From: a virus
Strand: one strand, 5' to 3'
IMG/VR virus record: IMGVR_UViG_3300045988_094163
DNA: 48,996 nt
Position 1 is the stretch's first letter. Each line of letters begins with the position of its first letter. The notes beneath the pieces were generated by a model that was not told where the DNA came from, did not search any database, and saw nothing but the letters and a program-made list of their open reading frames with translations. Made by a program: the position numbers and the translations under genes. This document shows, piece after piece, positions 1 through 48,996 of this stretch.

Positions 1-77
1 AGGATAGACATTGCCTTAGTGTTATCATTCAATGGTTTAAACAACATCACAAACAATCCAATCAAAGAGGATAAACA
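1..77. repeat. 77-bp exact direct repeat of the window ends (1-77 = 48920-48996). This is an assembly overlap of a circular or circularly permuted genome; unique length is 48919 bp.
   Basis: Both termini read aggatagacattgccttagtg...atcaaagaggataaaca. An ORF continues in frame across the junction. Confidence 0.95.
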
Positions 78-1985: not shown

Positions 1986-2005
1986 TACGTTTCACATGAA
2001 ACATT
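1986..2005 (-). repeat. Copy 1 of an exact 20-nt repeat (tacgtttcacatgaaacatt) that forms a small hairpin just after the terL stop codon
   Basis: Identical 20-mer at 20790-20809 just after the dnaE stop. On the minus strand it reads AAUGUUUCAUGUGAAACGUA (arms GUUUCA/UGAAAC). Confidence 0.8.
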
Positions 2006-2309
2006 ATCCTGCTTTACTGTTTGTTTTAATCTCCTTCACATCTGCAACGGTATATGTGTCCAACGCATACCACAACGCAGAGAATGTATGTGGGTCAATG
2101 TTAAATTCATCATAGATTGCATTGCCCCTTGAATCCCTCTTATATGTAAGGTCTTTCAACTCTCGGATTGTGTTCTTACATCTAGGGGAACAAACTATCT
2201 TGTTAAATCGTTTCATCTTCTTTGTGTTCTGTAAACGACTTCCAATGTACTTTTTCGCTCCATACATGTTGTACCCTTGCTGTCTGTAAAACTGAATTGT
2301 TTTGGGCTC
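2004..2309 (-). CDS. terL: Terminase large subunit, exon 2 (C-terminal 101 aa)
   Basis: [14 protein letters not shown]...[17 protein letters not shown]...[12 protein letters not shown] is the C-terminal end of the nuclease domain of PBSX/T4-type large terminases. No ATG of its own (the track start is TTG). Joins in frame to ...CADSA at 3149. Confidence 0.85.
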
Positions 2310-3148
2310 CAATATATTCTGTATAGATCGCTACTCTATACACGTTCTCTTATGAACTGCTTATACTTTCATATAAGTTTAGACTATATCTTAGCATTTC
2401 TGCTCCATGCTTTTCCACACGCTTGTGTGTACTCTACTCACTTCCATTACATTTTGGATATCTAACATAATGTGTTTTCGATAGTCGTTGAATAGCTTGT
2501 TCTTTCGTTAGTTTTTGATATGAGAACAAATATCCTTTATGTTGTCTTTCAATTCCTCTGCATACATTTGCAACATGTGAGCTATTAAACCCATCATAAT
2601 GTGCTTCTTTTGTAGAGATATAACTTTTTATAAAATACCCATTGCTATCATACATATAAACTTTCTTTGATAAACTCCAATCATTGTTCTCCTTTGGAGT
2701 CACCCAACACAAATTATCTGCATTATTATTTTTTCTATTTTCGTCTTTATGATTAACATATTTTCTTTTTGATGTTTCTCCTTTTACAAAAGCCTTTGCA
2801 ACTAATCTGTTTACCCTAACATAATTTACTTTGTTGTGTTTTGTTGTAAGAGCAACATTCAAATAACCACCTGTTTTCTCATACTGCTTTAATTCTTTTC
2901 TATGAGAGACATCTACAACCTTTCCTCCGTTTGTTCTAAGAGAAAATACTCTTCCATCATAAGAAACATAATATCCATCGTTTATATGTTCAAACCCTTT
3001 TATTTTATTTATTTGTTTCACTTTCATATCAAAATCCTCCGTTTACTTTAAACTACTACTGATTACCCAATCCTTAAAATTGTCACGCTACGGTATTTAA
3101 GGCTCTAAGGGCTTCCCAGTATTTAACATGGTTAAGTACCAAAATTTT
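2310..3148 (-). mobile_element. Group I self-splicing intron (839 nt) interrupting terL and carrying an HNH homing endonuclease ORF
   Basis: 5-prime splice site after U (GCU|AAAAUUUU) and last intron base G (2310). P1: exon AGUGCU (3154-3149) pairs with intron GGUACU (3140-3135), giving the U-G wobble. R-like CAACGACUAUCG (2490-2479) and S-like AAGAUAUAGUCU (2392-2381) can form P7 (GACUAU/AUAGUC). The exons rejoin as ADSA-EPKT. Confidence 0.8.
2434..3027 (-). CDS. HNH homing endonuclease (HNH_3 type with NUMOD-like DNA-binding modules), intron-encoded
   Basis: GGAGG 8 nt upstream of ATG 3027. N-terminal GYYVSYDGRVFS module and HNH core YVNHKDENRKNNNADNLCWVTPKENN. Lies entirely inside the terL intron, and its 3-prime end overlaps the intron core. 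Confidence 0.85.
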   Translation of the reverse strand: MKVKQINKIKGFEHINDGYYVSYDGRVFSLRTNGGKVVDVSHRKELKQYEKTGGYLNVALTTKHNKVNYVRVNRLVAKAFVKGETSKRKYVNHKDENRKNNNADNLCWVTPKENNDWSLSKKVYMYDSNGYFIKSYISTKEAHYDGFNSSHVANVCRGIERQHKGYLFSYQKLTKEQAIQRLSKTHYVRYPKCNGSE

Positions 3149-4201
3149 AGCACTATCTGCACAAATAGGCTTTTCACATCTTCCTGCCCTCTCCGCTACT
3201 GCACGAACATCTTGTCTCTGTGAGAATCTATCATCTGTTATCTGATTCATGTACACTTCATCATAAATGTACAGCACTTTGTTTGCATCATCAACACAAC
3301 AACTGATAAGCGCATTGTAACTCTCTTCAAAACCAAAATCAAGACCAAAGAAATGGAATTGCGAAGAAATGCTGTTCACCTTCCGTTTGAACTCTCTGCT
3401 GTCCTTCGCAACAACAAAGTTCGGAAGTACCCTTGTTCCATTCGCTCCAAACCTTCCCCACCTTGCAACAACCCACAATTGTTTGTCTGTTCTCTTCAAT
3501 CCATCCAGACGGCGAATGTATGAAACAGGCAGGAACGGGTTATCATCTGGTAGGCTGTGATGATAATAAACACCATTCTTTTTGTTCACCAATGTTCTAC
3601 GTCTGTAAAACTCTTCTGGACTTTGTATTGTTCTCTCTCTTCCTTTATCATCTGTATGCACAAAAAAGGTATTGTATACCCAATTTTCCTTGCCGACAGG
3701 GTTTGTTGTTAAGATAAAATGCAACGTCACTTTAGGCTCTCTGATACGCCCTAGCAATTCGGTATATGCTTCATAACGGATTTCGCTACATTCTTCCATC
3801 CAAACAATGCTGACACCGTGAATGGACTTGATTTTCTCCGTATTATCCATTCCTCGGAATATGATTCTTGAACCATTCGGAAAACGGATTTCCAAAGGGC
3901 TAGAAATCGCAACCACTTTGTCCCCCTTTGGTCTGTGATTGTTTCTTACCGCTTCGTCTGATAACAACCCCATCTTTTCAAGGATTTCTTTAAACAATGC
4001 GAAACAAGATTCTTTGATTGTTTCACGCACTTGTCTTACCACCAATGCTGTTCGTTTTTCTTCCAGAAGTTTTAGTATAATCTTCAATGCTACATGGTAA
4101 CTCTTTCCGCTACCATACCCACCCAATAACAGGTATTGTTCATAATCCCAATCGGTTAGAAAAGAAGCAAATCTGTTTGACACTTCAATGTTCACATCCA
4201 T
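3149..4201 (-). CDS. terL: Terminase large subunit, exon 1 (351 aa); the spliced product is 452 aa
   Basis: Start moved to ATG 4201 (AAGGAG 9 nt upstream) because the track M1 at 4297 lies upstream of the predicted transcription start. Walker A LLLGGYGSGKSY, Walker B SIVWMEE, nuclease motifs FGLDFGFEES and ICADSA. After ADSA the frame runs only 21 codons into the intron. Confidence 0.9.
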
Positions 4202-4229
4202 GTTTGTTTGCTCCTTTGTTTTAATATGC

Positions 4230-4290
4230 ACAAAACAGATAAGTGGCAAATGTACACAATCTGATGTACACCGAACCTTATCTGTTTTGT
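4230..4290 (-). promoter_or_regulatory. 5-prime-terminal stem-loop of the terL mRNA leader (stabiliser, attenuator or protein-binding site)
   Basis: 14-bp perfect inverted repeat acaaaacagataag (4230-4243) / cttatctgttttgt (4277-4290) enclosing a UGUACA/UGUACA inner stem. It begins within a few nt of the predicted +1 of promoter 4298-4327. Confidence 0.6.
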
Positions 4291-4297
4291 CTATCAT

Positions 4298-4327
4298 ATT
4301 ATACCATATTCAATTATTGTTCGTCAA
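4298..4327 (-). promoter_or_regulatory. Sigma-A-type promoter for terL
   Basis: Minus strand TTGACG (4327-4322), 18-nt spacer, TGgTATAAT (-10 at 4303-4298). Confidence 0.7.
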
Positions 4328-5007: not shown

Positions 5008-5817
5008 TTAGATTCCCTTAATAGGTATCTTGATAATTGGATTATAGTCAATGTACTTTCTATTCTTTTTGCTTCGTCCTTTGTTTGATGTGTCCAACCT
5101 TACTATGTTGCTTCCCCACTTTTTACGCAACAACTCAAACTGTTCCTTTTCCCTTTCCATATTACGGTACATTGCACAACCGCCCTTTTGTTCTGACTGC
5201 CTACACACATAATGGTATTTGTTCAATCTCAATGCCCCTCTATACAGATTCATGTTCTGTAAAGTCATGTCATAATCTTCTTTTAATGGAAGTCTTTCAT
5301 CATATCTAAGTTCATTCCCTTTTAAAAAACACTGGAAAGGACCTCCTATATAGGATGTAGTGCTGAATGGTGAATACTGCCTATAAGACATTGTATCACT
5401 GTTACAATTCAATCCCCAGAATTTAAAACCCCAGTCATGGCACAATAAAGAATAACGATATAAGAAATCTAGTATTTCATCTGATTTTACTTTGACCTTT
5501 TCATACGCATATGCTTCGTCTTCTGACATTTCAAAATGTTCGATTGCTCGTAAATCATCATCGATCAATAAAACAATATCTGCACCATTTTCAAACTCTG
5601 TGTCAAGGATATAATTTCTTACTCTGCACAGATTTCCCTGCACCCCTTTCGGACACTTAACAATATTCCCATTATGTTTTGGGTTAAACTCTAAATATGT
5701 TTCATATTCTTCTGGCGCAACATAAACTTTACAGAAAGGAATATAACTTAGTGTCTCAACCTTATACCGTTTATAAGACGGACAAGCAACGATGATTTCT
5801 TTTCCCTTATACTTCAT
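5008..5817 (-). CDS. Putative GT-A-fold glycosyltransferase-like protein (269 aa)
   Basis: N-terminal beta strand IIVACPSYKR, DXD-like LLIDDDL after a hydrophobic strand, and PLKEDYDMTLQ downstream. The start overlaps the stop of the ParB-like gene by 11 nt. Assignment rests on the motif pattern only. Confidence 0.35.
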   Translation of the reverse strand: MKYKGKEIIVACPSYKRYKVETLSYIPFCKVYVAPEEYETYLEFNPKHNGNIVKCPKGVQGNLCRVRNYILDTEFENGADIVLLIDDDLRAIEHFEMSEDEAYAYEKVKVKSDEILDFLYRYSLLCHDWGFKFWGLNCNSDTMSYRQYSPFSTTSYIGGPFQCFLKGNELRYDERLPLKEDYDMTLQNMNLYRGALRLNKYHYVCRQSEQKGGCAMYRNMEREKEQFELLRKKWGSNIVRLDTSNKGRSKKNRKYIDYNPIIKIPIKGI

Positions 5818-6463
5818 TACTTGTCACCCTTTCTAACGCTTTCTGACCGTCTAGCACTCTTCCTACTCCTGCTCTCATGCCGAATGATTTCTTGTTTCCT
5901 TTCTTCTTTGTTGGGTACGCCTTTGCTTTCTCAATTCCAAACAATCCCATAGCATTGAGCCAATCAATCTTATTGTTGAACTTCAACACGATGTAATTGT
6001 TTTCTTCATTCAGTATCTCTGTGAATGGTACATCTGGTTCAACTTCTATTGTTTCATCTTCCAGTGCATCAATACTAAACCCAAACACTTCCATGTCTAT
6101 GTCCGATTTTAGAAGTTCACTGATTTCTTCATTAATCAATGTTTCATCATAACTTGATTCTGCTGTTTTGTTCTCAATCAATCTCCAAGCCTTGATTTGT
6201 TCCTCTGTCATATCATCCAGACAGATTGTAGGCACTTGTGTTAGCCCTGCTTTCTTTGCCGCAAGGATTCTTCCATGACCTTCAACAACATAATCATCTT
6301 TGTCAATTGCTACTGCCCTGTGTTCAAAGAACCCGAACTGCTTAATACTGTTCATAATTCTTTCAACCTGTTCTTTCGGATGTTTCTTTGCATTCTTCTT
6401 ATATGGTTTTAACTCTCTTATGTTTCTGTATGTTATCTTGATACCACTTGCTTTTGTTACCAT
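5807..6463 (-). CDS. ParB/Srx N-terminal (ParB-like nuclease) domain protein (218 aa)
   Basis: LKPYKKNAKKHPKEQVERIMNSIKQFGF ... VVEGHGRILAAKKAGLTQVP matches the ParBc pattern. Confidence 0.7.
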   Translation of the reverse strand: MVTKASGIKITYRNIRELKPYKKNAKKHPKEQVERIMNSIKQFGFFEHRAVAIDKDDYVVEGHGRILAAKKAGLTQVPTICLDDMTEEQIKAWRLIENKTAESSYDETLINEEISELLKSDIDMEVFGFSIDALEDETIEVEPDVPFTEILNEENNYIVLKFNNKIDWLNAMGLFGIEKAKAYPTKKKGNKKSFGMRAGVGRVLDGQKALERVTSNEV

Positions 6464-6576
6464 GTATTCTATGCCCCTTTCTATGTTCTTTGTTCTGTCT
6501 TTGTTCTAAATGGTATGTTATGTTCTATTGTTCTTTGTATACTTGTTATATACTATTCTTGTATGAACTCATAGAA

Positions 6577-6903
6577 CTATTCTAACAATCTTTGTTCTGT
6601 CCTGTCAAGTTTATATAGTTTCCTTTCTCTGACTTCCCTTTCGTTTCCTAATAGGTACTTGATTTGTTCTAACAGAAGTTCCACATCTGCAATCTCGTCT
6701 ACTATCATATATTCTGCATGACACATGTCTGTCTGGCATGTTTTATCTCCCTGTAAGATTCTCTGATACTTGCTTAACGCTTGTATGAGTTCTCCACATT
6801 CTTCTGTACACTGTAATAATCTGTTTTCAATCCCAAACTGTTCTGCTTGCTTCCTTGTGTATTTATCTATCTGTATTTGTTTTAATTCTGCATCAGTTGC
6901 CAT
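6577..6903 (-). CDS. mazG: MazG-like all-alpha nucleoside triphosphate pyrophosphohydrolase (108 aa)
   Basis: EECGELIQALSKYQR and VDEIADVELLLEQIKYLL correspond to the metal-binding helices of MazG-type NTP-PPases. Confidence 0.65.
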   Translation of the reverse strand: MATDAELKQIQIDKYTRKQAEQFGIENRLLQCTEECGELIQALSKYQRILQGDKTCQTDMCHAEYMIVDEIADVELLLEQIKYLLGNEREVRERKLYKLDRTEQRLLE

Positions 6904-7773: not shown

Positions 7774-8007
7774 TTATACTCCTATTTTACTATGTTCTGC
7801 TATGTTTGTCAATATGTTCTTGCAAAATAATTCATTTTGTTCTGTGTGTTTCCATATCCACTCCAAAACAGATAACCTCTGTAAGCCGTTTATTTGCCCT
7901 TTTAATCCATTTTCTATATTAAGGTGATAACTTCTTAGGGTAGCCCCATATTCTCTCGCTATTTCAATAGCTGACGCTTTTCTGCCGCTATCCTTCATAG
8001 ATGTCAT
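7774..8007 (-). CDS. Small HTH protein resembling sigma-70 region 4 (77 aa)
   Basis: Internal ATG 8007 (GAGGA 8 nt upstream) chosen because the 129-aa track ORF overlaps 7988-8503 out of frame. SAIEIAREYGATLRSYHLNIENGLKG fits the region 4.2 helix-turn-helix pattern. Confidence 0.4.
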   Translation of the reverse strand: MTSMKDSGRKASAIEIAREYGATLRSYHLNIENGLKGQINGLQRLSVLEWIWKHTEQNELFCKNILTNIAEHSKIGV

Positions 8008-8503
8008 TGCCCCAATCCTCATCATCATCGCTGTCCTCCATCCAGTCTGTACTGTTCTCTGCATCCCATATATCTTGTTCATCCTGTTCATTCGGTTGAT
8101 ATGTTTCCCCTTTTGCAACAAGATTGATTGTGATATTGCTTGTGACCTTTCCTGTGTTTTCAAACATTTCTAGTTTGTCCATCATGTCTGTAATCTCTCT
8201 GATTGCAGAAACATCTCCTGTCAATCCCTTCTGGAACAATGCAACCATCAACAAGGAACGGTTCGTAAGTTCTTCATCTGTGAACCCAAAGGAACGTAAC
8301 ACTTGTTTCTTTTTATCGCTGTTTGTTTTCATCTCCAACAACTGACGCATACAATTCTGTAACGCCATGTTTTGTTCCTTCTTCTTTTTCCTTGCTTCAA
8401 CTCCCATCATTGCTATCCGTTTTCGTTCTTCTGGTGTTCTCTCATTCAGTGGTATTAGATTCTCACTTGCTTCTTTTACCTCTCTTCCTTTCCTTCTTCC
8501 CAT
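7988..8503 (-). CDS. Hypothetical basic/acidic helical protein (171 aa); small-terminase-like DNA-binding candidate
   Basis: First ORF after the structured leader, with an AAAAGGAGGA RBS. Basic N-terminus GRRKGREVKE..RTPEERKRIAMMGVEARKKKKEQ and acidic tail DSDDDEDWGNDIYEG. Confidence 0.3.
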   Translation of the reverse strand: MGRRKGREVKEASENLIPLNERTPEERKRIAMMGVEARKKKKEQNMALQNCMRQLLEMKTNSDKKKQVLRSFGFTDEELTNRSLLMVALFQKGLTGDVSAIREITDMMDKLEMFENTGKVTSNITINLVAKGETYQPNEQDEQDIWDAENSTDWMEDSDDDEDWGNDIYEG

Positions 8504-8514
8504 GTTCTGTCTTA

Positions 8515-8822
8515 TCCTCCTTTTGTTTTATTATTTGTTCTCTAAATACACAACAAGACAAGGTTGCCCTTGTCTGTTACTGTCTCTATATGATGAATCA
8601 CGTTGCCGCTTGAATCAATCACAATATTTAGTTTATGAATCAATATGTTTACAAGTTACATGACGTTTCTCGGTTACGTCAAACGGATATACTTACACAT
8701 TTTCTTGTACCACGACTAATATATGGCTACCACAGCGGCAACGTGATAATTTATTTTATTGGTAGGCATTTCCATTTAAGGCTACCACTTACTTGTGCCA
8801 ATCCAAGCACAACTCCTTCTTT
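8515..8822 (-). promoter_or_regulatory. About 310-nt untranslated, highly structured leader RNA between promoter 8830-8858 and the start at 8503
   Basis: No ORF with an RBS. 14-bp perfect long-range stem atcacgttgccgct (8597-8610) / agcggcaacgtgat (8734-8747) encloses nested stems (UACAAG/CUUGUA, UGACGU/ACGUCA). Direct repeat ggctaccac at 8725 and 8780. Distal 10-bp hairpin at 8553-8577. Confidence 0.6.
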
Positions 8823-8829
8823 TGATTCT

Positions 8830-8858
8830 ATTATAGCAGAGTTTGTTTGGATTGTCAA
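8830..8858 (-). promoter_or_regulatory. Consensus sigma-A promoter
   Basis: TTGACA (8858-8853), 17-nt spacer, TGcTATAAT (-10 at 8835-8830). Confidence 0.75.
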
Positions 8859-8861
8859 CAC

Positions 8862-9026
8862 TTAACTGTGATAATTTGCTCTAAATATGGTAGAACGGCT
8901 GATGGTGTCCTTCTTCCTGTTTCCCTTTATCCTCTCATTTTCTTCTTGGAACTTTCTGTATTCCTCACATTCTGCATGGCATTTTACTGTCCTTCTTCCA
9001 CATCCCTTACATGGTGCATAACTCAT
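8862..9026 (-). CDS. Small Cys-rich (putative zinc-binding) protein, 54 aa, below the track cutoff
   Basis: MSYAPCKGCGRRTVKCHAECEEYRKFQEENERIKGNRKKDTISRSTIFRANYHS, with CxxC-x6-CHxxC. The ATG lies 3 nt after the stop of 9030-9434. Confidence 0.5.
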   Translation of the reverse strand: MSYAPCKGCGRRTVKCHAECEEYRKFQEENERIKGNRKKDTISRSTIFRANYHS

Positions 9027-9029
9027 ATA

Positions 9030-9434
9030 CTATAACCAACCTTTGCTTTTTAAATAGTCCTCTACATCACACAAATAAAGCATTGCTTCTTGTGTTTCTT
9101 CTTCCTTTATGCTAATGAACCCATTCTCGTCTCTGTCCGTAAATCTCTGTAATGGAATCGGAAACCCTCTCTCTGTTACATGGTTCAATTTATATCCTAC
9201 TTCCCGAATGTACTTTACACATACCACCAGAACACACGACACTATCAACATCTTAGGAGTGCTTAAATCCATCTTAGCAATCACAATCGGTATTAATACT
9301 TGAATCACTATGGCTATTTTGTCTAATTCCTCAACTAACCCATATTTTAAAGTTGCAAACAATTCTGCCAGCGTTTGCAACAACACTACGCATACTCTTT
9401 GTTTCGTTTTTTTCTTGTTCTTCCTTTTCATCAT
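9030..9434 (-). CDS. Membrane protein (134 aa)
   Basis: Basic N-terminus KRKNKKKTKQR followed by hydrophobic segments IAIVIQVLIPIVIA and MLIVSCVLVVCV. The start overlaps the upstream stop (TAATG). Confidence 0.6.
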   Translation of the reverse strand: MMKRKNKKKTKQRVCVVLLQTLAELFATLKYGLVEELDKIAIVIQVLIPIVIAKMDLSTPKMLIVSCVLVVCVKYIREVGYKLNHVTERGFPIPLQRFTDRDENGFISIKEEETQEAMLYLCDVEDYLKSKGWL

Positions 9435-12279: not shown

Positions 12280-12829
12280 CCTGTTTTCTCCTTTCTCTGT
12301 TTTTCTCTTTCATTCTTTGTTTGAACTCTTGTTCTTGCTGTTCTCGTTCCTTCCCTTTCTGTTTCATGTAGGCTTGCCGAGCGAGGTAGGACTTTCCTGC
12401 GTTCCTACCGCCTACAAATACATTATAATTTGTTCCATCTCCATTGTCAACCCCTAAATCTGTTCCGCAAAACAAATCTTCGTTGACATTCAATTGCTCG
12501 GAAATATCTTCACCAGCCACAAGGCTCTGTACCAGCCCTAAATCCTCTGGTCTTATCATCACCCATACTTCACCAGTATTAAGGAACTGCAAGGCAAATA
12601 CGGGCAGTTTGTGAGCCACAGCCGCATTTTGTTCGAGTATATGAATATCATTCTGTTTGATGCTGATGCTCTGCTTGTCCGTAGATTTTAACTGACAGAT
12701 ACACTGTTCATTTTGTCCATCCTCTTTTTCAATCCATCCTGCACCGCTATTCTTTGTCGGCTTGAATCCAAGCCGCTTCATTACCTCTGCTTCGTTTTTC
12801 CGATAGAACTTTGTAGAACGTTTATTCAT
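12239..12829 (-). CDS. PD-(D/E)XK-type nuclease-like protein (resolvase-like), 196 aa
   Basis: EAEVMKRLGF..NSGAGWIEKEDG..CICQLKST fits an E...D...(E/Q)xK nuclease core. Basic, K/R/E-rich C-terminal tail. Confidence 0.45.
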   Translation of the reverse strand: MNKRSTKFYRKNEAEVMKRLGFKPTKNSGAGWIEKEDGQNEQCICQLKSTDKQSISIKQNDIHILEQNAAVAHKLPVFALQFLNTGEVWVMIRPEDLGLVQSLVAGEDISEQLNVNEDLFCGTDLGVDNGDGTNYNVFVGGRNAGKSYLARQAYMKQKGKEREQQEQEFKQRMKEKNRERRKQVGKEIQTKGHCNL

Positions 12830-27002: not shown

Positions 27003-27053
27003 TGTTTTGTTCTCCTTTTCTGTTTGAATTGAATTTATTTATTTTATACTTTT

Positions 27054-27082
27054 ATTATACTACCAACACACCAACGTGTCAA
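27054..27082 (-). promoter_or_regulatory. Consensus sigma-A promoter for the replication operon
   Basis: TTGACA (27082-27077), 17-nt spacer, TATAAT (27059-27054). Confidence 0.75.
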
Positions 27083-27085
27083 TCG

Positions 27086-27244
27086 TTAAATTCCAAAAAA
27101 TGCAAGGAATATTCTTAATATGAATGGGGACATGATTATAGATATTGCCCCTAGTAACACTTCAAATTCTTCCCATGTAATTCCCCATTCTTTCCAGAAC
27201 CTCTGGAACTTCCTTTTCAACCTTCTTTTCTGTAATGGTGTCAC
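27086..27244 (-). CDS. Small membrane peptide (52 aa, GTG start), below the track cutoff
   Basis: GAAGGAGGG 8 nt upstream of GTG 27244. VTPLQKRRLKRKFQRFWKEWGITWEEFEVLLGAISIIMSPFILRIFLAFFGI has a basic N-terminus and a C-terminal TM helix. Purine-rich like the other genes. Confidence 0.5.
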   Translation of the reverse strand: MTPLQKRRLKRKFQRFWKEWGITWEEFEVLLGAISIIMSPFILRIFLAFFGI

Positions 27245-27278
27245 TGTACTTGCCCTCCTTCTCCGATTCTATTGTATG

Positions 27279-27320
27279 ATAGTGTGTTGATGAAAACAAC
27301 ACACTATTTTAAAATTTTTA
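27279..27320 (+). terminator. Hairpin with terminator geometry only in the plus orientation (the only plus-strand signal found in the genome)
   Basis: 11-bp perfect stem atagtgtgttg (27279-27289) / caacacactat (27297-27307). The plus strand continues TTTAAAATTTTTAAT, while on the minus strand the stem is followed by a non-U-rich sequence. Confidence 0.45.
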
Positions 27321-27360
27321 ATAACACATTGCTTTACTTAGTTCTGGATTGTTAAATTAT

Positions 27361-27379
27361 TCAATAACTATTTTATAAA
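27361..27379. repeat. Copy 2 of the exact 19-nt repeat (see 15553-15571)
   Basis: tcaataactattttataaa read at both sites. Confidence 0.85.
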
Positions 27380-27452
27380 ACATAATTTCTAAGTTCTTTA
27401 TCTTCTGGTTCTTCTAAATCAAGCCATTTGTCAACACCCTGTTGTAATTTAA

Positions 27453-27722: not shown

Positions 27723-27751
27723 ATAATAACATACTTTTCTATGTTCGTCAA
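27723..27751 (-). promoter_or_regulatory. Sigma-A-type promoter (probable first early promoter)
   Basis: TTGACG (27751-27746), 17-nt spacer, TGtTATTAT (-10 at 27728-27723). Confidence 0.6.
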
Positions 27752-38761: not shown

Positions 38762-38965
38762 TTATTTTAACAACTTACTATAAAAATCGCTGAAACTATG
38801 ATACTCTTGTTTCTTCTGAACCAGCTCATTTTCCTCATACTGAGGAATTTCTCCTGCTTCTAGCTTTTGCCTGATATACGCACAGGCTTCATCAAAACAA
38901 AAAGCTGTATAATTATCCTGCACACCTACGATATCGCTAGGCTTGCAATTATACAGCTTTGACAT
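38762..38965 (-). CDS. Small protein in the gpT-equivalent position between the chaperone and the tape measure (67 aa)
   Basis: Has its own ATG 13 nt after the chaperone stop. Separate ORF, not a frameshift extension. Confidence 0.5.
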   Translation of the reverse strand: MSKLYNCKPSDIVGVQDNYTAFCFDEACAYIRQKLEAGEIPQYEENELVQKKQEYHSFSDFYSKLLK

Positions 38966-48741: not shown

Positions 48742-48996
48742 CTATTTAATTGAGTGTTTAATGTCAATTATACCATCACTCAATTCATCAATCTTATCCC
48801 ATTGCCTTTTTTGACCCTCTCTCACTTTATCTTTGTAATCATCAAATTCTTTGATATGCTGTTTTAACTCTTCGTCTCTTTCATCCATCTTTTCTGCTAT
48901 TCTGTCTATCCTAGACACGAGGATAGACATTGCCTTAGTGTTATCATTCAATGGTTTAAACAACATCACAAACAATCCAATCAAAGAGGATAAACA
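48742..48996 (-). CDS. 3-prime part of the BhlA/UviB-like holin-type gene that starts at 113 (wraps the junction)
   Basis: In-frame continuation across the 77-bp overlap. Coiled-coil tail RIDRIAEKMDERDEELKQHIKEF. Confidence 0.5.
   Translation of the reverse strand, partial: CLSSLIGLFVMLFKPLNDNTKAMSILVSRIDRIAEKMDERDEELKQHIKEFDDYKDKVREGQKRQWDKIDELSDGIIDIKHSIK
48920..48996. repeat. Second copy of the 77-bp terminal overlap
   Basis: Identical to 1-77. Confidence 0.95.

What the first reader, a model, noticed from the sequence alone, without database searches (positions are those of the whole stretch)
8504..8861. Consensus promoter feeding a ~310-nt untranslated leader with a 14-bp long-range stem
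Seen: a perfect TTGACA-17-TGcTATAAT promoter (8830-8858) starts 3 nt after the stop of the preceding gene. It is followed by about 310 nt with no RBS-linked ORF before the 8503 start. On the minus strand, AUCACGUUGCCGCU (8747-8734) pairs perfectly with AGCGGCAACGUGAU (8610-8597) across 123 nt. That interval contains nested stems (UACAAG/CUUGUA, UGACGU/ACGUCA, an AUAUUAG/CUAAAUAU stem with a bulge). GGUAGCC occurs twice. A 10-bp hairpin (8577-8553) with a weak U tract sits 40 nt before the RBS. A perfect GC-rich 14-bp stem stands out in this A/T-rich genome.

Inference, three alternatives:
- an antitermination or attenuation switch controlling the downstream block (analogous in layout to a PR-prime/qut/tR-prime arrangement)
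- a stable phage ncRNA
- as DNA, a pac/cos or origin element upstream of a small-terminase-like gene
Basis: partly seen in the sequence, partly recalled or inferred. Interest (0 to 1): 0.65.

Follow-up and report, generated by a model that had tools for sequence, protein, structure and literature searches.

The report
Conserved structured leader RNA in gut phages
A strong promoter in this gut Clostridium phage makes about 320 bases of folded, non-coding RNA that ends in a terminator just before a gene; its conserved core is a new two-hairpin motif that most likely decides whether transcription reads on.

Summary
On the minus strand there is a perfect TTGACA-17-TGcTATAAT promoter (8858-8830), a leader of about 320 nt with no credible ORF, a perfect 14-bp long-range stem (8747-8734 / 8610-8597) and a terminator-like hairpin (8575-8556) ahead of the RBS.

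Relatives change the emphasis. About 120 loci of one family of human-gut phages (Clostridium phage CS266P1-4 and metagenomic kin) share one layout:
- a small Cys-rich gene, then a consensus promoter;
- a two-hairpin module of about 55 nt (window 8818-8761);
- a variable domain closed by a long helix;
- a terminator hairpin, an RBS, then a 171-aa gene of unknown function.

The module is the conserved core. It has 26 different hairpin-1 stems, 6 hairpin-2 stems and invariant loop letters (GGAU, AGU, GCC..AAA). It occurs once per genome and matches nothing in Rfam.

That insert is a real RNA structure, with compensatory changes and 24 G.U against 0 A.C pairs.

Best reading (about 45%): a conditional-termination leader comparable to put or nut, not homologous to either. 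Not excluded: a stand-alone ncRNA, a classical attenuator, or a stabiliser/processing leader. A DNA pac/cos/ori element is unlikely.

The parts
8862..9026 (-). Upstream neighbour: a 54-aa Cys-rich protein (PCxxCxxRxxxCHxxCxxY). Its stop codon lies 3 nt before the -35 hexamer. Candidate trans factor only.
   Evidence: It sits directly upstream of the promoter in all clades read. Its 62 homologs are unannotated. Distant homologs occur without any leader or module after them.
8830..8858 (-). Sigma-A/sigma-70-type promoter: TTGACA, 17 nt, TGcTATAAT. The predicted transcription start is near 8823.
   Evidence: 12/12 match with extended -10. TTGACA(A) plus 17-18 nt plus TGnTAnnnT is conserved in every clade. 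The start site is an inference.
8761..8818 (-). Conserved two-hairpin module: AAGGAG, hairpin 1, GUAAGU, hairpin 2, UACC. This is the core of the element.
   Evidence: The covariance model R1 scores 70 bits (E 3e-20) here, and the next best hit in the window is 12 bits. One hit was found in 85 of 90 related loci. Covariation score 0.79 against 0.28 (A6) and 0.73 against 0.27 (A10).
8793..8812 (-). Hairpin 1: UUGUGCU [UGGAUU] GGCACAA. The loop motif GGAU is invariant.
   Evidence: 26 distinct stem versions with a conserved loop. 6 of 7 pairs show changes on both sides.
8761..8786 (-). Hairpin 2: GGUA [GCC UUAAAUGG AAA] UGCC, followed by the tail UACC.
   Evidence: Six stem versions: GGUA/UACC, GGUA/UGCC, GACA/UGUC, AACA/UGUU, GUUA/UGAC, GAUA/UAUC. 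3 of 4 pairs show double changes.
8748..8760 (-). A-rich 13-nt linker between the module and the closing helix.
   Evidence: The closing helix starts 11-15 nt after the module in every clade that has a middle domain.
8597..8747 (-). Clade-specific middle domain, closed by the 14-bp helix P1 (8747-8734 with 8610-8597).
   Evidence: P1 is kept at 14-16 bp in four haplotypes, with double changes at 4-5 positions. Other clades have unrelated sequences closed by 11-19-bp helices at the same place.
8707..8730 (-). P2 hairpin: GUA-G-CCAU [AUAUUAGUC] GUGG-UAC. Its 5' arm is the second GGUAGCC.
   Evidence: 100% paired, but only one one-sided change (U.G to U-A), so the evidence is weak.
8661..8681 (-). 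P3 hairpin: UGACGU [AACCGAGAA] ACGUCA.
   Evidence: 4 of 6 pairs show double changes: GACGU/ACGUC, GAUGU/ACAUC, GACAU/AUGUC, GGUGU/ACACC, CGACGU/ACGUCG.
8546..8584 (-). Terminator-like hairpin. Core AGACAAGG GCAA CCUUGUCU at 8575-8556, tail UGUUGUGUAU, and an upstream A-rich stretch that can extend the stem.
   Evidence: Found by the terminator scan. A GC-rich hairpin followed by a U/A-rich tail occupies the same place in all clades, often with much better U tracts. The stem is conserved but shows little covariation.
8501..8520 (-). RBS (AAAAGGAGG) and ATG of the first gene downstream.
   Evidence: Read from the sequence. No promoter-like site lies between the terminator and the RBS.
7988..8503 (-). 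171-aa gene of unknown function with a basic N-terminus and an acidic C-terminus. It is always the gene behind the leader.
   Evidence: phrog_2412 (unknown function), and DUF5681 far below the cut-off. 153 unnamed homologs. AlphaFold2 pLDDT 60, with no fold matches in the PDB.

Best explanation
This is a cis-acting regulatory leader that sets how much transcription passes its own terminator.

Proposed sequence of events:
- Host sigma-A RNA polymerase starts at about 8823 from a consensus promoter.
- The first 60 nt fold into a conserved two-hairpin module (8818-8761).
- Unless that module acts, the polymerase stops at the hairpin at 8575-8546 and releases an RNA of about 275 nt.
- When the module acts, the polymerase reads on into the 171-aa gene and the small genes behind it. 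The module could act on its own, like HK022 put RNA, or as the loading site for a phage or host protein, like lambda nut.
- The 150-nt domain closed by the 14-bp stem is an accessory insert. Its closing helix loops it out, so the module stays about 15-35 nt (through the helix) from the terminator. It may also be an RNase III target or a timing loop.

Shown by computation: the promoter, the RNA structures, their conservation, the single copy per genome, the fixed architecture, and the absence from known families.

Inferred: termination at the hairpin, read-through control by the module, and the role of the insert.
For: 1. The layout is conserved while the sequence is not. In relatives whose 171-aa protein is 45-100% identical, the order is always consensus promoter, module, optional helix-closed domain, GC-rich hairpin with U/A-rich tail, RBS.
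2. The module is a real RNA structure. 93.8% of cells pair against 69% in shuffles, and 9 of 11 pairs change on both sides. The covariation score is 0.787 against 0.277 (0 of 500 shuffles reach it), and slid controls give at most 0.17. The same holds for 38 distinct sequences. G.U outnumbers A.C by 35 to 3.
3. There is one copy per genome, always upstream of the same gene and on the sense strand.
4. This is the only unit in the genome ordered promoter then terminator. The other units are ordered terminator then promoter, with 30-60-nt leaders.
5. There is no universal complementarity between module and terminator. The linear distance varies from 0 to 350 nt, yet the closed domains always begin 11-15 nt after the module and end 2-21 nt before the terminator. 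This fits an element that acts on the polymerase at a nearby terminator rather than a sequence-specific alternative pairing.
6. There are precedents for RNA-based cis antiterminators in mobile elements of Gram-positive bacteria and in phages: put, about 70 nt with two stem-loops just after PL (PMC9378689); conAn2, a 238-nt centre flanked by 20-bp inverted repeats, whose activity falls with distance from the terminator (PMC8191782); and canT (PMC11658703).
Against: - There are no expression data. Termination at 8575-8546 is only predicted, and the window's U tract is poor (UUGUUGUGUA).
- No antiterminator protein is recognisable nearby. Homologs of the Cys-rich neighbour occur without the RNA.
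- The module has no similarity to put, EAR or any Rfam family.
- Near-consensus promoters downstream (7812, 6608, 4940, 4327) mean little of the genome depends on this read-through.
- In L031 and L033 the module overlaps or complements the terminator in ways that imply opposite logics. A single simple mechanism is therefore not evident.
Confidence: 0.45

Rival explanations
1. A stand-alone phage non-coding RNA of about 275 nt, with its own promoter and terminator, that acts in trans (for example on host or phage RNAs or proteins, or against a defence system). The downstream gene is expressed only by incidental leak-through.
For: - A promoter and a terminator bracket a structured, non-coding segment that covaries.
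- The conserved loop letters would suit binding of a partner.
- The variable middle domain could be a fast-evolving functional part.
Against: - No promoter lies between the terminator and the next gene in any clade examined, so that gene depends on read-through.
- The unit is strictly tied to one downstream gene family.
- Minimal versions (L033, 127 nt from the -10 to the ATG) leave almost nothing but module and terminator.
Confidence: 0.2
2. A classical attenuator or riboswitch-like switch. A ligand or protein stabilises hairpin 2, which competes with an antiterminator or terminator pairing.
For: - L031: the hairpin-2 3' arm plus tail (UACCUGCCUU) is complementary over 10 nt to the terminator 5' arm (p = 0.003).
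- L033: the terminator 3' arm is the hairpin-2 3' arm.
- L190 and L186: the terminator 5' arm repeats 11 nt and 9 nt of hairpin 2.
- Window: GUGGUAGCC is repeated 9 nt at P2.
- Invariant loop letters with variable stems are typical of binding pockets.
Against: - Most clades show no complementarity or repeat beyond chance.
- The pairings in L031 and L033 imply opposite outcomes.
- The module is small and matches no Rfam riboswitch.
Confidence: 0.12
3. A leader for mRNA stabilisation or processing. The 5' polypurine AAGGAG plus a 5' hairpin protects the transcript, and the long closing helices are RNase III sites. This would resemble the phage SP82 early RNAs and the lambda N leader (both from my own knowledge). 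There would be no control of termination.
For: - An SD-like polypurine without a usable start codon precedes hairpin 1 in all clades.
- Long perfect helices of 11-19 bp are a recurrent feature.
Against: - This does not explain the invariant loop and linker letters of hairpins 1 and 2, nor the obligatory terminator hairpin before the RBS.
- A 14-bp helix is short for RNase III (my own knowledge).
Confidence: 0.1
4. A DNA-level element (pac/cos site or replication origin) in which the inverted repeats serve as protein-binding sites.
For: - It is the largest stretch of the genome without a long ORF (8504-9029).
- It has inverted repeats, and some metagenomic contigs break near it.
Against: - G.U outnumbers A.C by 24 to 0 and 35 to 3 in paired positions, so the structure is selected on the transcribed strand only.
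- There are no iterons and no skew change.
- The assembly closes on itself with a 77-nt overlap elsewhere in the genome.
- The adjacent gene is not recognisably a small terminase.
Confidence: 0.03

Closest known systems
HK022 put RNAs (putL, putR)
   Same: Both are about 55-70 nt of nascent RNA with two stem-loops. putL lies just downstream of a strong early promoter and ahead of terminators, and it acts in cis (PMC9378689).
   Different: - No sequence or structure similarity: R1 finds nothing at the put sites of HK022.
- One copy per genome here, against two in HK022.
- The host here is Gram-positive (Clostridia).
- The conserved letters here are in loops and the linker.
- Factor independence and binding to the beta' zinc-binding domain are untested here.
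Lambda PL-nutL-N leader (N/nut antitermination)
   Same: Strong promoter, then a short conserved RNA site (a linear motif plus a hairpin), then a large structured leader, then the RBS of a small basic protein. The lambda details are from my own knowledge.
   Different: - No boxA/boxB motifs.
- Here a terminator precedes the first gene.
- The 171-aa protein has no recognisable relation to N.
Lambda Q / PR' / qut / 6S RNA / tR'
   Same: A small gene ends just before a constitutive strong promoter, whose transcript stops a few hundred nt downstream unless modified.
   Different: - The upstream 54-aa Cys-rich protein matches no Pfam or PHROG family, including Q families.
- The conserved element here is in the RNA well downstream of the promoter, not a DNA site within it.
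- This is not the only late promoter of the phage.
conAn2 RNA of pLS20 (with ConAn1), and canT of Tn916
   Same: These are large (260-600 nt), poorly conserved structured RNAs of Gram-positive mobile elements that antiterminate in cis. conAn2 has a 238-nt centre flanked by 20-bp inverted repeats plus internal stem-loops, and a small protein gene lies directly upstream (PMC8191782, PMC11658703).
   Different: - No ConAn1 (PF17362) among the ten neighbouring proteins scanned.
- Phage context, not a conjugation operon.
- Here the promoter lies between the protein gene and the RNA.
- Here the invariant part is a small 5' module that conAn2 lacks.
Catalogued candidate structured RNAs of IMG/VR phages (Fremin et al. 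2023)
   Same: That work used comparative genomics on the same kind of contigs and lists 8,495 unnamed candidate structures, many upstream of genes (PMC10690425).
   Different: I could not check whether this motif is among them, because no supplement is held. No function is assigned there in any case.

Membership tests
Any Rfam 15 family (riboswitches, EAR, pRNA, T-box, ribozymes, leaders) | Match to the family covariance model at or near its gathering score | tested here: not met
   No hit in the whole window at gathering thresholds. With E up to 10 on 8300-9100, the only hit is a spurious plus-strand miRNA match (16 bits against a gathering score of 110).
HK022 put RNA | Two stem-loops of about 70 nt just downstream of an early promoter | tested here: met
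   The module at 8818-8761 starts about 6 nt after the predicted transcription start and has two hairpins supported by covariation. This is a resemblance of layout only.
HK022 put RNA | Sequence and structure homology to putL/putR | tested here: not met
   Model R1 run without filters on the HK022 genome gives no hit better than 8.5 bits, and none in the PL/PR regions.
HK022 put RNA | Factor-independent antitermination through the RNA polymerase beta' zinc-binding domain | not testable with these tools
   This needs in vitro transcription or genetics.
conAn (ConAn1 + conAn2) | ConAn1 protein (Pfam PF17362) encoded directly upstream of the RNA | tested here: not met
   A Pfam scan of the ten neighbouring proteins, including 8862-9026 and 9030-9434, gives no PF17362 hit.
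conAn (ConAn1 + conAn2) | RNA region of 260-600 nt with long flanking inverted repeats and internal stem-loops | tested here: met
   A 14-bp inverted repeat flanks 123 nt containing the P2 and P3 hairpins. In conAn2, however, the inverted repeats were dispensable (PMC8191782).
Lambda Q-type late control | Q-family antiterminator gene upstream of the promoter | tested here: not met
   The 54-aa protein has no Pfam or PHROG match, and its homologs are unannotated.
Lambda N/nut | boxA/boxB RNA site and an arginine-rich N protein | tested here: inconclusive
   No boxA/boxB-like consensus was seen by reading the module. The 171-aa protein has a basic N-terminus but no detectable relation to N. RNA binding is untested.
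Intrinsic (Rho-independent) terminator | GC-rich stem-loop directly followed by a U tract | tested here: met
   The scan finds an 8-bp stem with 4 G-C pairs, a 4-nt loop and the tail UGUUGUGUAU at 8575-8546. The U tract is weak in the window but canonical in relatives, for example L186 UUUUUCUU and L190 UUUUUAAU. Function is untested.
Riboswitch / alternative-pairing attenuator | Conserved mutually exclusive pairing between the sensor and the terminator | tested here: not met
   Only 2 of 18 clade representatives (L031, L190) show a clearly non-chance complementarity or repeat (p = 0.003). L186 (p = 0.047) and the window (p = 0.06) are marginal, and the rest show none.
pac/cos or origin DNA element | Symmetry selected at the DNA level, adjacent small terminase, skew change | tested here: not met
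   G.U against A.C is 24:0 and 35:3. GC skew is flat. The neighbouring gene is not recognisably a small terminase. Physical ends of the genome are untested.

The most novel reading that the evidence does not exclude
The 55-nt two-hairpin module is a new, self-sufficient RNA that modifies RNA polymerase. It would be a functional counterpart of put in phages of Gram-positive Clostridia, making host sigma-A polymerase terminator-resistant without any phage protein. The helix-closed variable inserts would be an evolved way to add a delay or a payload while keeping the module next to the terminator.
Probability: 0.25. Interest if true: 0.8.

Novelty: new variant of a known kind. Interest (0 to 1): 0.62.

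Why it matters
RNA-only or RNA-centred antitermination is known from very few systems: put, EAR, conAn2 and canT. None of these is from phages of Gram-positive anaerobes.

This case offers a compact motif backed by strong covariation, with natural minimal versions (115-150 nt) and expanded versions (up to 500 nt). It sits in phages that have been isolated (CS266P1-4) on a culturable gut Clostridium. That makes testing direct.

It could give a new handle on transcription timing in gut phages and a portable part for controlling read-through. It also shows that these phages run on a dozen perfect host-type promoters, which raises the question of how they achieve temporal control at all.

Tried and rejected
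- Rfam, at gathering thresholds and at relaxed E-values: nothing.
- Similar DNA in deposited phages: only CS266P1-4, annotated as hypothetical.
- One representative genome per species: only one MAG hit, so there is no sign of prophages.
- The hairpin-2 DNA patterns in IMG/VR: only this family, plus chance hits inside coding regions.
- Second copies of the module in the window: none.
- Homology to put in HK022: none.
- The Cys-rich neighbour as an obligate partner: weakened, because distant homologs lack the RNA.
- Identity of the 171-aa protein: nothing firm from PHROG, Pfam, PDB sequence search, an AlphaFold2 model (pLDDT 60) or a PDB fold search. A second fold search against viral structures was submitted but never collected.
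- Origin of replication by GC skew: flat.
- Universal module-terminator alternative pairing: not found.
- A leader peptide: the short ORFs after the AAGGAG differ or are absent between clades (read).
- An apparent likeness of the module to the 23S rRNA L11-binding region was considered by eye and dropped. There was no Rfam support and it was not tested further.
- Literature on these phages and the supplement of the phage structured-RNA catalogue: not available.

Full report
**What is there**

All coordinates are on the minus strand. The stop codon of a 54-aa ORF (8862-9026) is followed after 3 nt by TTGACA (8858-8853), a 17-nt spacer ending in TGc, and TATAAT (8835-8830). About 320 nt follow before AAAAGGAGG and the ATG at 8503 of a 171-aa ORF. 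No short ORF in this stretch has a usable RBS. Close relatives carry 2-nt and 6-nt indels here.

AUCACGUUGCCGCU (8747-8734) pairs perfectly with 8610-8597. A hairpin at 8575-8556 with the tail UGUUGUGUAU is picked up by the terminator scan. The leader folds at -79.2 kcal/mol against -62.8 for shuffles, z = -3.4.

**Context**

The window is a complete phage genome that was assembled as a circle; it has a 77-nt terminal overlap. All of its genes are on the minus strand. It is 96-97% identical across this region to Clostridium phages CS266P1-4, whose host is Clostridium_AP sp000509125 and in which the region is unannotated.

The genome encodes a DNA polymerase, a primase, a recombinase, a split TerL and more. 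I saw no integrase. Only one MAG among 185,579 species genomes carries the neighbouring gene. The phage is therefore probably virulent.

The window holds 12 perfect TTGACA-N16-18-TATAAT sites, all on the coding strand. The promoter at 8858 is thus not 'the' late promoter. Other transcription units run terminator then promoter, with 30-60-nt leaders. Only this one runs promoter, long structured RNA, terminator.

**Relatives**

I searched with the 171-aa protein and recovered 31 loci (32 with a profile of the family) from IMG/VR, 73 metagenome loci and one MAG. A DNA pattern search added L112.

Down to about 45% protein identity the same layout recurs:
- a small Cys-rich gene;
- TTGACA(A), 17-18 nt, TGnTAnnnT;
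- a purine run (GGAG);
- hairpin 1 with an nGGAUn loop;
- (A)AGU;
- hairpin 2, G-N-N-A [GCC...AAA] U-N-N-C, followed by [U/A][G/A]CC;
- a variable part;
- a GC-rich hairpin with a U/A-rich tail;
- the RBS.

The most distant homologs (38% identity; L214 and L216) have no leader at all.

**The conserved core**

Across 43 distinct versions, hairpin 1 has 26 different stem versions and hairpin 2 has six.

On a 12-sequence MAFFT alignment:
- 93.8% of cells pair, against 69.2% in shuffles.
- 9 of 11 pairs change on both sides.
- The covariation score is 0.787 against 0.277, reached by 0 of 500 shuffles.
- Slid controls give at most 0.17.

A covariance model built from that alignment (R1) gave these results:
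- Exactly one site in the window, 8818-8761, at 70 bits. The next best is 12 bits.
- One site in 85 of 90 related loci, always on the sense strand upstream of the gene.
- Nothing at the put sites of HK022.
- Nothing in loci of other phages that carry distant homologs of the Cys-rich protein.

On the resulting 38 distinct sequences the covariation score is 0.729 against 0.273. That alignment is fitted to the model, so it leans towards the structure.

The stem closes a 151-nt domain that exists only in the window's clade. Within that clade it is clearly a selected RNA structure:
- P1 is kept at 14-16 bp in four haplotypes, with double changes at 4-5 positions.
- P3 (8681-8661) has four pairs with double changes.
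- Overall 97.6% of cells pair, with a covariation score of 0.275 against 0.167 (0 of 500 shuffles) and slid controls at most 0.09.
- Paired cells include 24 G.U and no A.C. The module has 35 against 3. The structure is therefore read on the transcribed strand.

P2 (8730-8707), whose 5' arm is the second GGUAGCC, never breaks but hardly varies. UACAAG/CUUGUA is not supported. AUAUUAG/CUAAAUAU is equivocal.

**A fixed architecture around a variable insert**

Other clades carry unrelated sequences at the same place, each closed by a long helix of 11-19 bp. L185 and L189 carry two in tandem. L031, L033 and L112 carry none.

In every case the closing helix starts 11-15 nt after the module and ends 2-21 nt before the terminator hairpin. 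In the window these gaps are 13 nt and 21 nt. With the inserts looped out, the module always sits about 15-35 nt from the terminator. That matches the 0-39 nt seen in the minimal leaders.

**How it most likely works**

Two things argue for regulated termination. The promoter-then-terminator order is unique in this genome, and no promoter lies between the terminator and the gene.

A test for complementarity or repeats between module and terminator was clearly positive in only two clades. L031 has a 10-nt complement (p = 0.003) and L190 an 11-nt repeat (p = 0.003). It was marginal in two more: L186 has a 9-nt repeat (p = 0.047) and the window a 9-nt repeat (p = 0.06). The pairings in L031 and L033 would give opposite outcomes. 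A classical alternative-pairing switch is therefore not the general mechanism.

A module that acts on the elongating polymerase near the terminator fits better. It could act alone, like put (PMC9378689), or with a bound protein, like nut. The compaction by closing helices recalls conAn2, whose antitermination falls with distance unless a protein helps, and which is itself flanked by 20-bp inverted repeats (PMC8191782).

I put this reading at about 0.45. Candidate protein partners are pure inference. They are the Cys-rich protein encoded just upstream, which is not obligately linked to the RNA, and the basic 171-aa protein encoded just downstream, which has no annotation and no confident fold.

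**Rivals**

- Stand-alone ncRNA of about 275 nt: 0.2.
- Ligand- or protein-sensing attenuator: 0.12.
- 5' stabiliser or RNase III processing leader: 0.1.
- DNA pac/cos/ori element: 0.03. This is disfavoured by the strand asymmetry of wobble pairs, flat GC skew and the lack of a recognisable small terminase next door.

**Comparison with known systems, and novelty**

The element works like, but is not a member of, the put, nut, Q/PR'-tR', conAn2/canT or EAR systems. There is no Rfam match, no put homology, no ConAn1 domain and no Q or N family protein.

A catalogue of 8,495 unnamed candidate structured RNAs from IMG/VR exists (PMC10690425). I could not check whether this motif is listed there.

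I class it as a new variant of a known kind: a new RNA motif family in a familiar regulatory position, with an unusual fixed-point insert closed by a helix.

**Verdict**

- The more interesting object is the two-hairpin module at 8818-8761, not the 14-bp stem.
- Interest: 0.62.

Noticed in passing
window, first-hexamer starts 47381, 45735, 44307, 35634, 32812, 27082, 24787, 19734, 15556, 13991, 12450, 8858 (all minus strand): There are twelve perfect TTGACA-N16-18-TATAAT promoters, all on the coding strand and none on the other strand. By my rough estimate, far fewer than one would be expected by chance. Several lie inside ORFs, including the tape-measure gene.
   Followed up: partly
window 2004-4297 (-): The large terminase gene is split into 3083-4297 and 2004-2312 by an HNH endonuclease ORF (2434-3027). 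A weak match to the 3' end of a group I intron (RF00028, 21 bits, E 0.008) lies at 2362-2392. This probably marks a mobile intron.
   Followed up: partly
window 4200-4327 (-): A second leader has the layout promoter, closed hairpin, RBS. TTGACG-18-TGgTATAAT (4327-4298) is followed by a perfect 14-bp helix (4290-4277 / 4243-4230) around an inner palindrome, then AAAGGAGC and an ATG near 4200. The real TerL start is probably there, not at 4297.
   Followed up: no
window 5008-6903 (-): A MazG-like NTP pyrophosphohydrolase (6577-6903), a ParB-like nuclease/methyltransferase-type domain protein (5807-6463) and a TET-associated-type glycosyltransferase (5008-5817) lie in a row. This could be a DNA hypermodification module.
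   Followed up: no
window 1-77 and 48920-48996: There is an exact 77-nt terminal direct repeat. This is an assembly overlap, so the window is a complete, circularly closed genome of about 48.9 kb.
   Followed up: yes
window 27003-27452 (-): This is the second-largest stretch without a long ORF. It holds a 19-nt imperfect hairpin (27271-27315) and a perfect promoter at 27082. A strong 17-bp terminator (27814-27777) and a promoter at 27751 lie just upstream. It may be the early control region.
   Followed up: no
window 38901-38960: This is the third perfect 14-nt inverted repeat (AAAGCTGTATAATT / AATTATACAGCTTT, 32 nt apart). It lies in the gap upstream of the 1085-aa tape-measure-like ORF.
   Followed up: no
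L185 (about 1150-1460) and L189 (about 1030-1400); L210 (about 1100-1200): Some relatives carry two helix-closed domains in tandem between the module and the terminator. In L210 a module-like element lies about 250 nt downstream of its promoter instead of about 15 nt.
   Followed up: partly
window 12380-12421 (-): The transcript from the perfect promoter at 12450 would begin with a GGUAGGA...UCCUACC hairpin, inside an ORF. It recalls the letters of hairpin 2 but is not a hit for model R1.
   Followed up: partly
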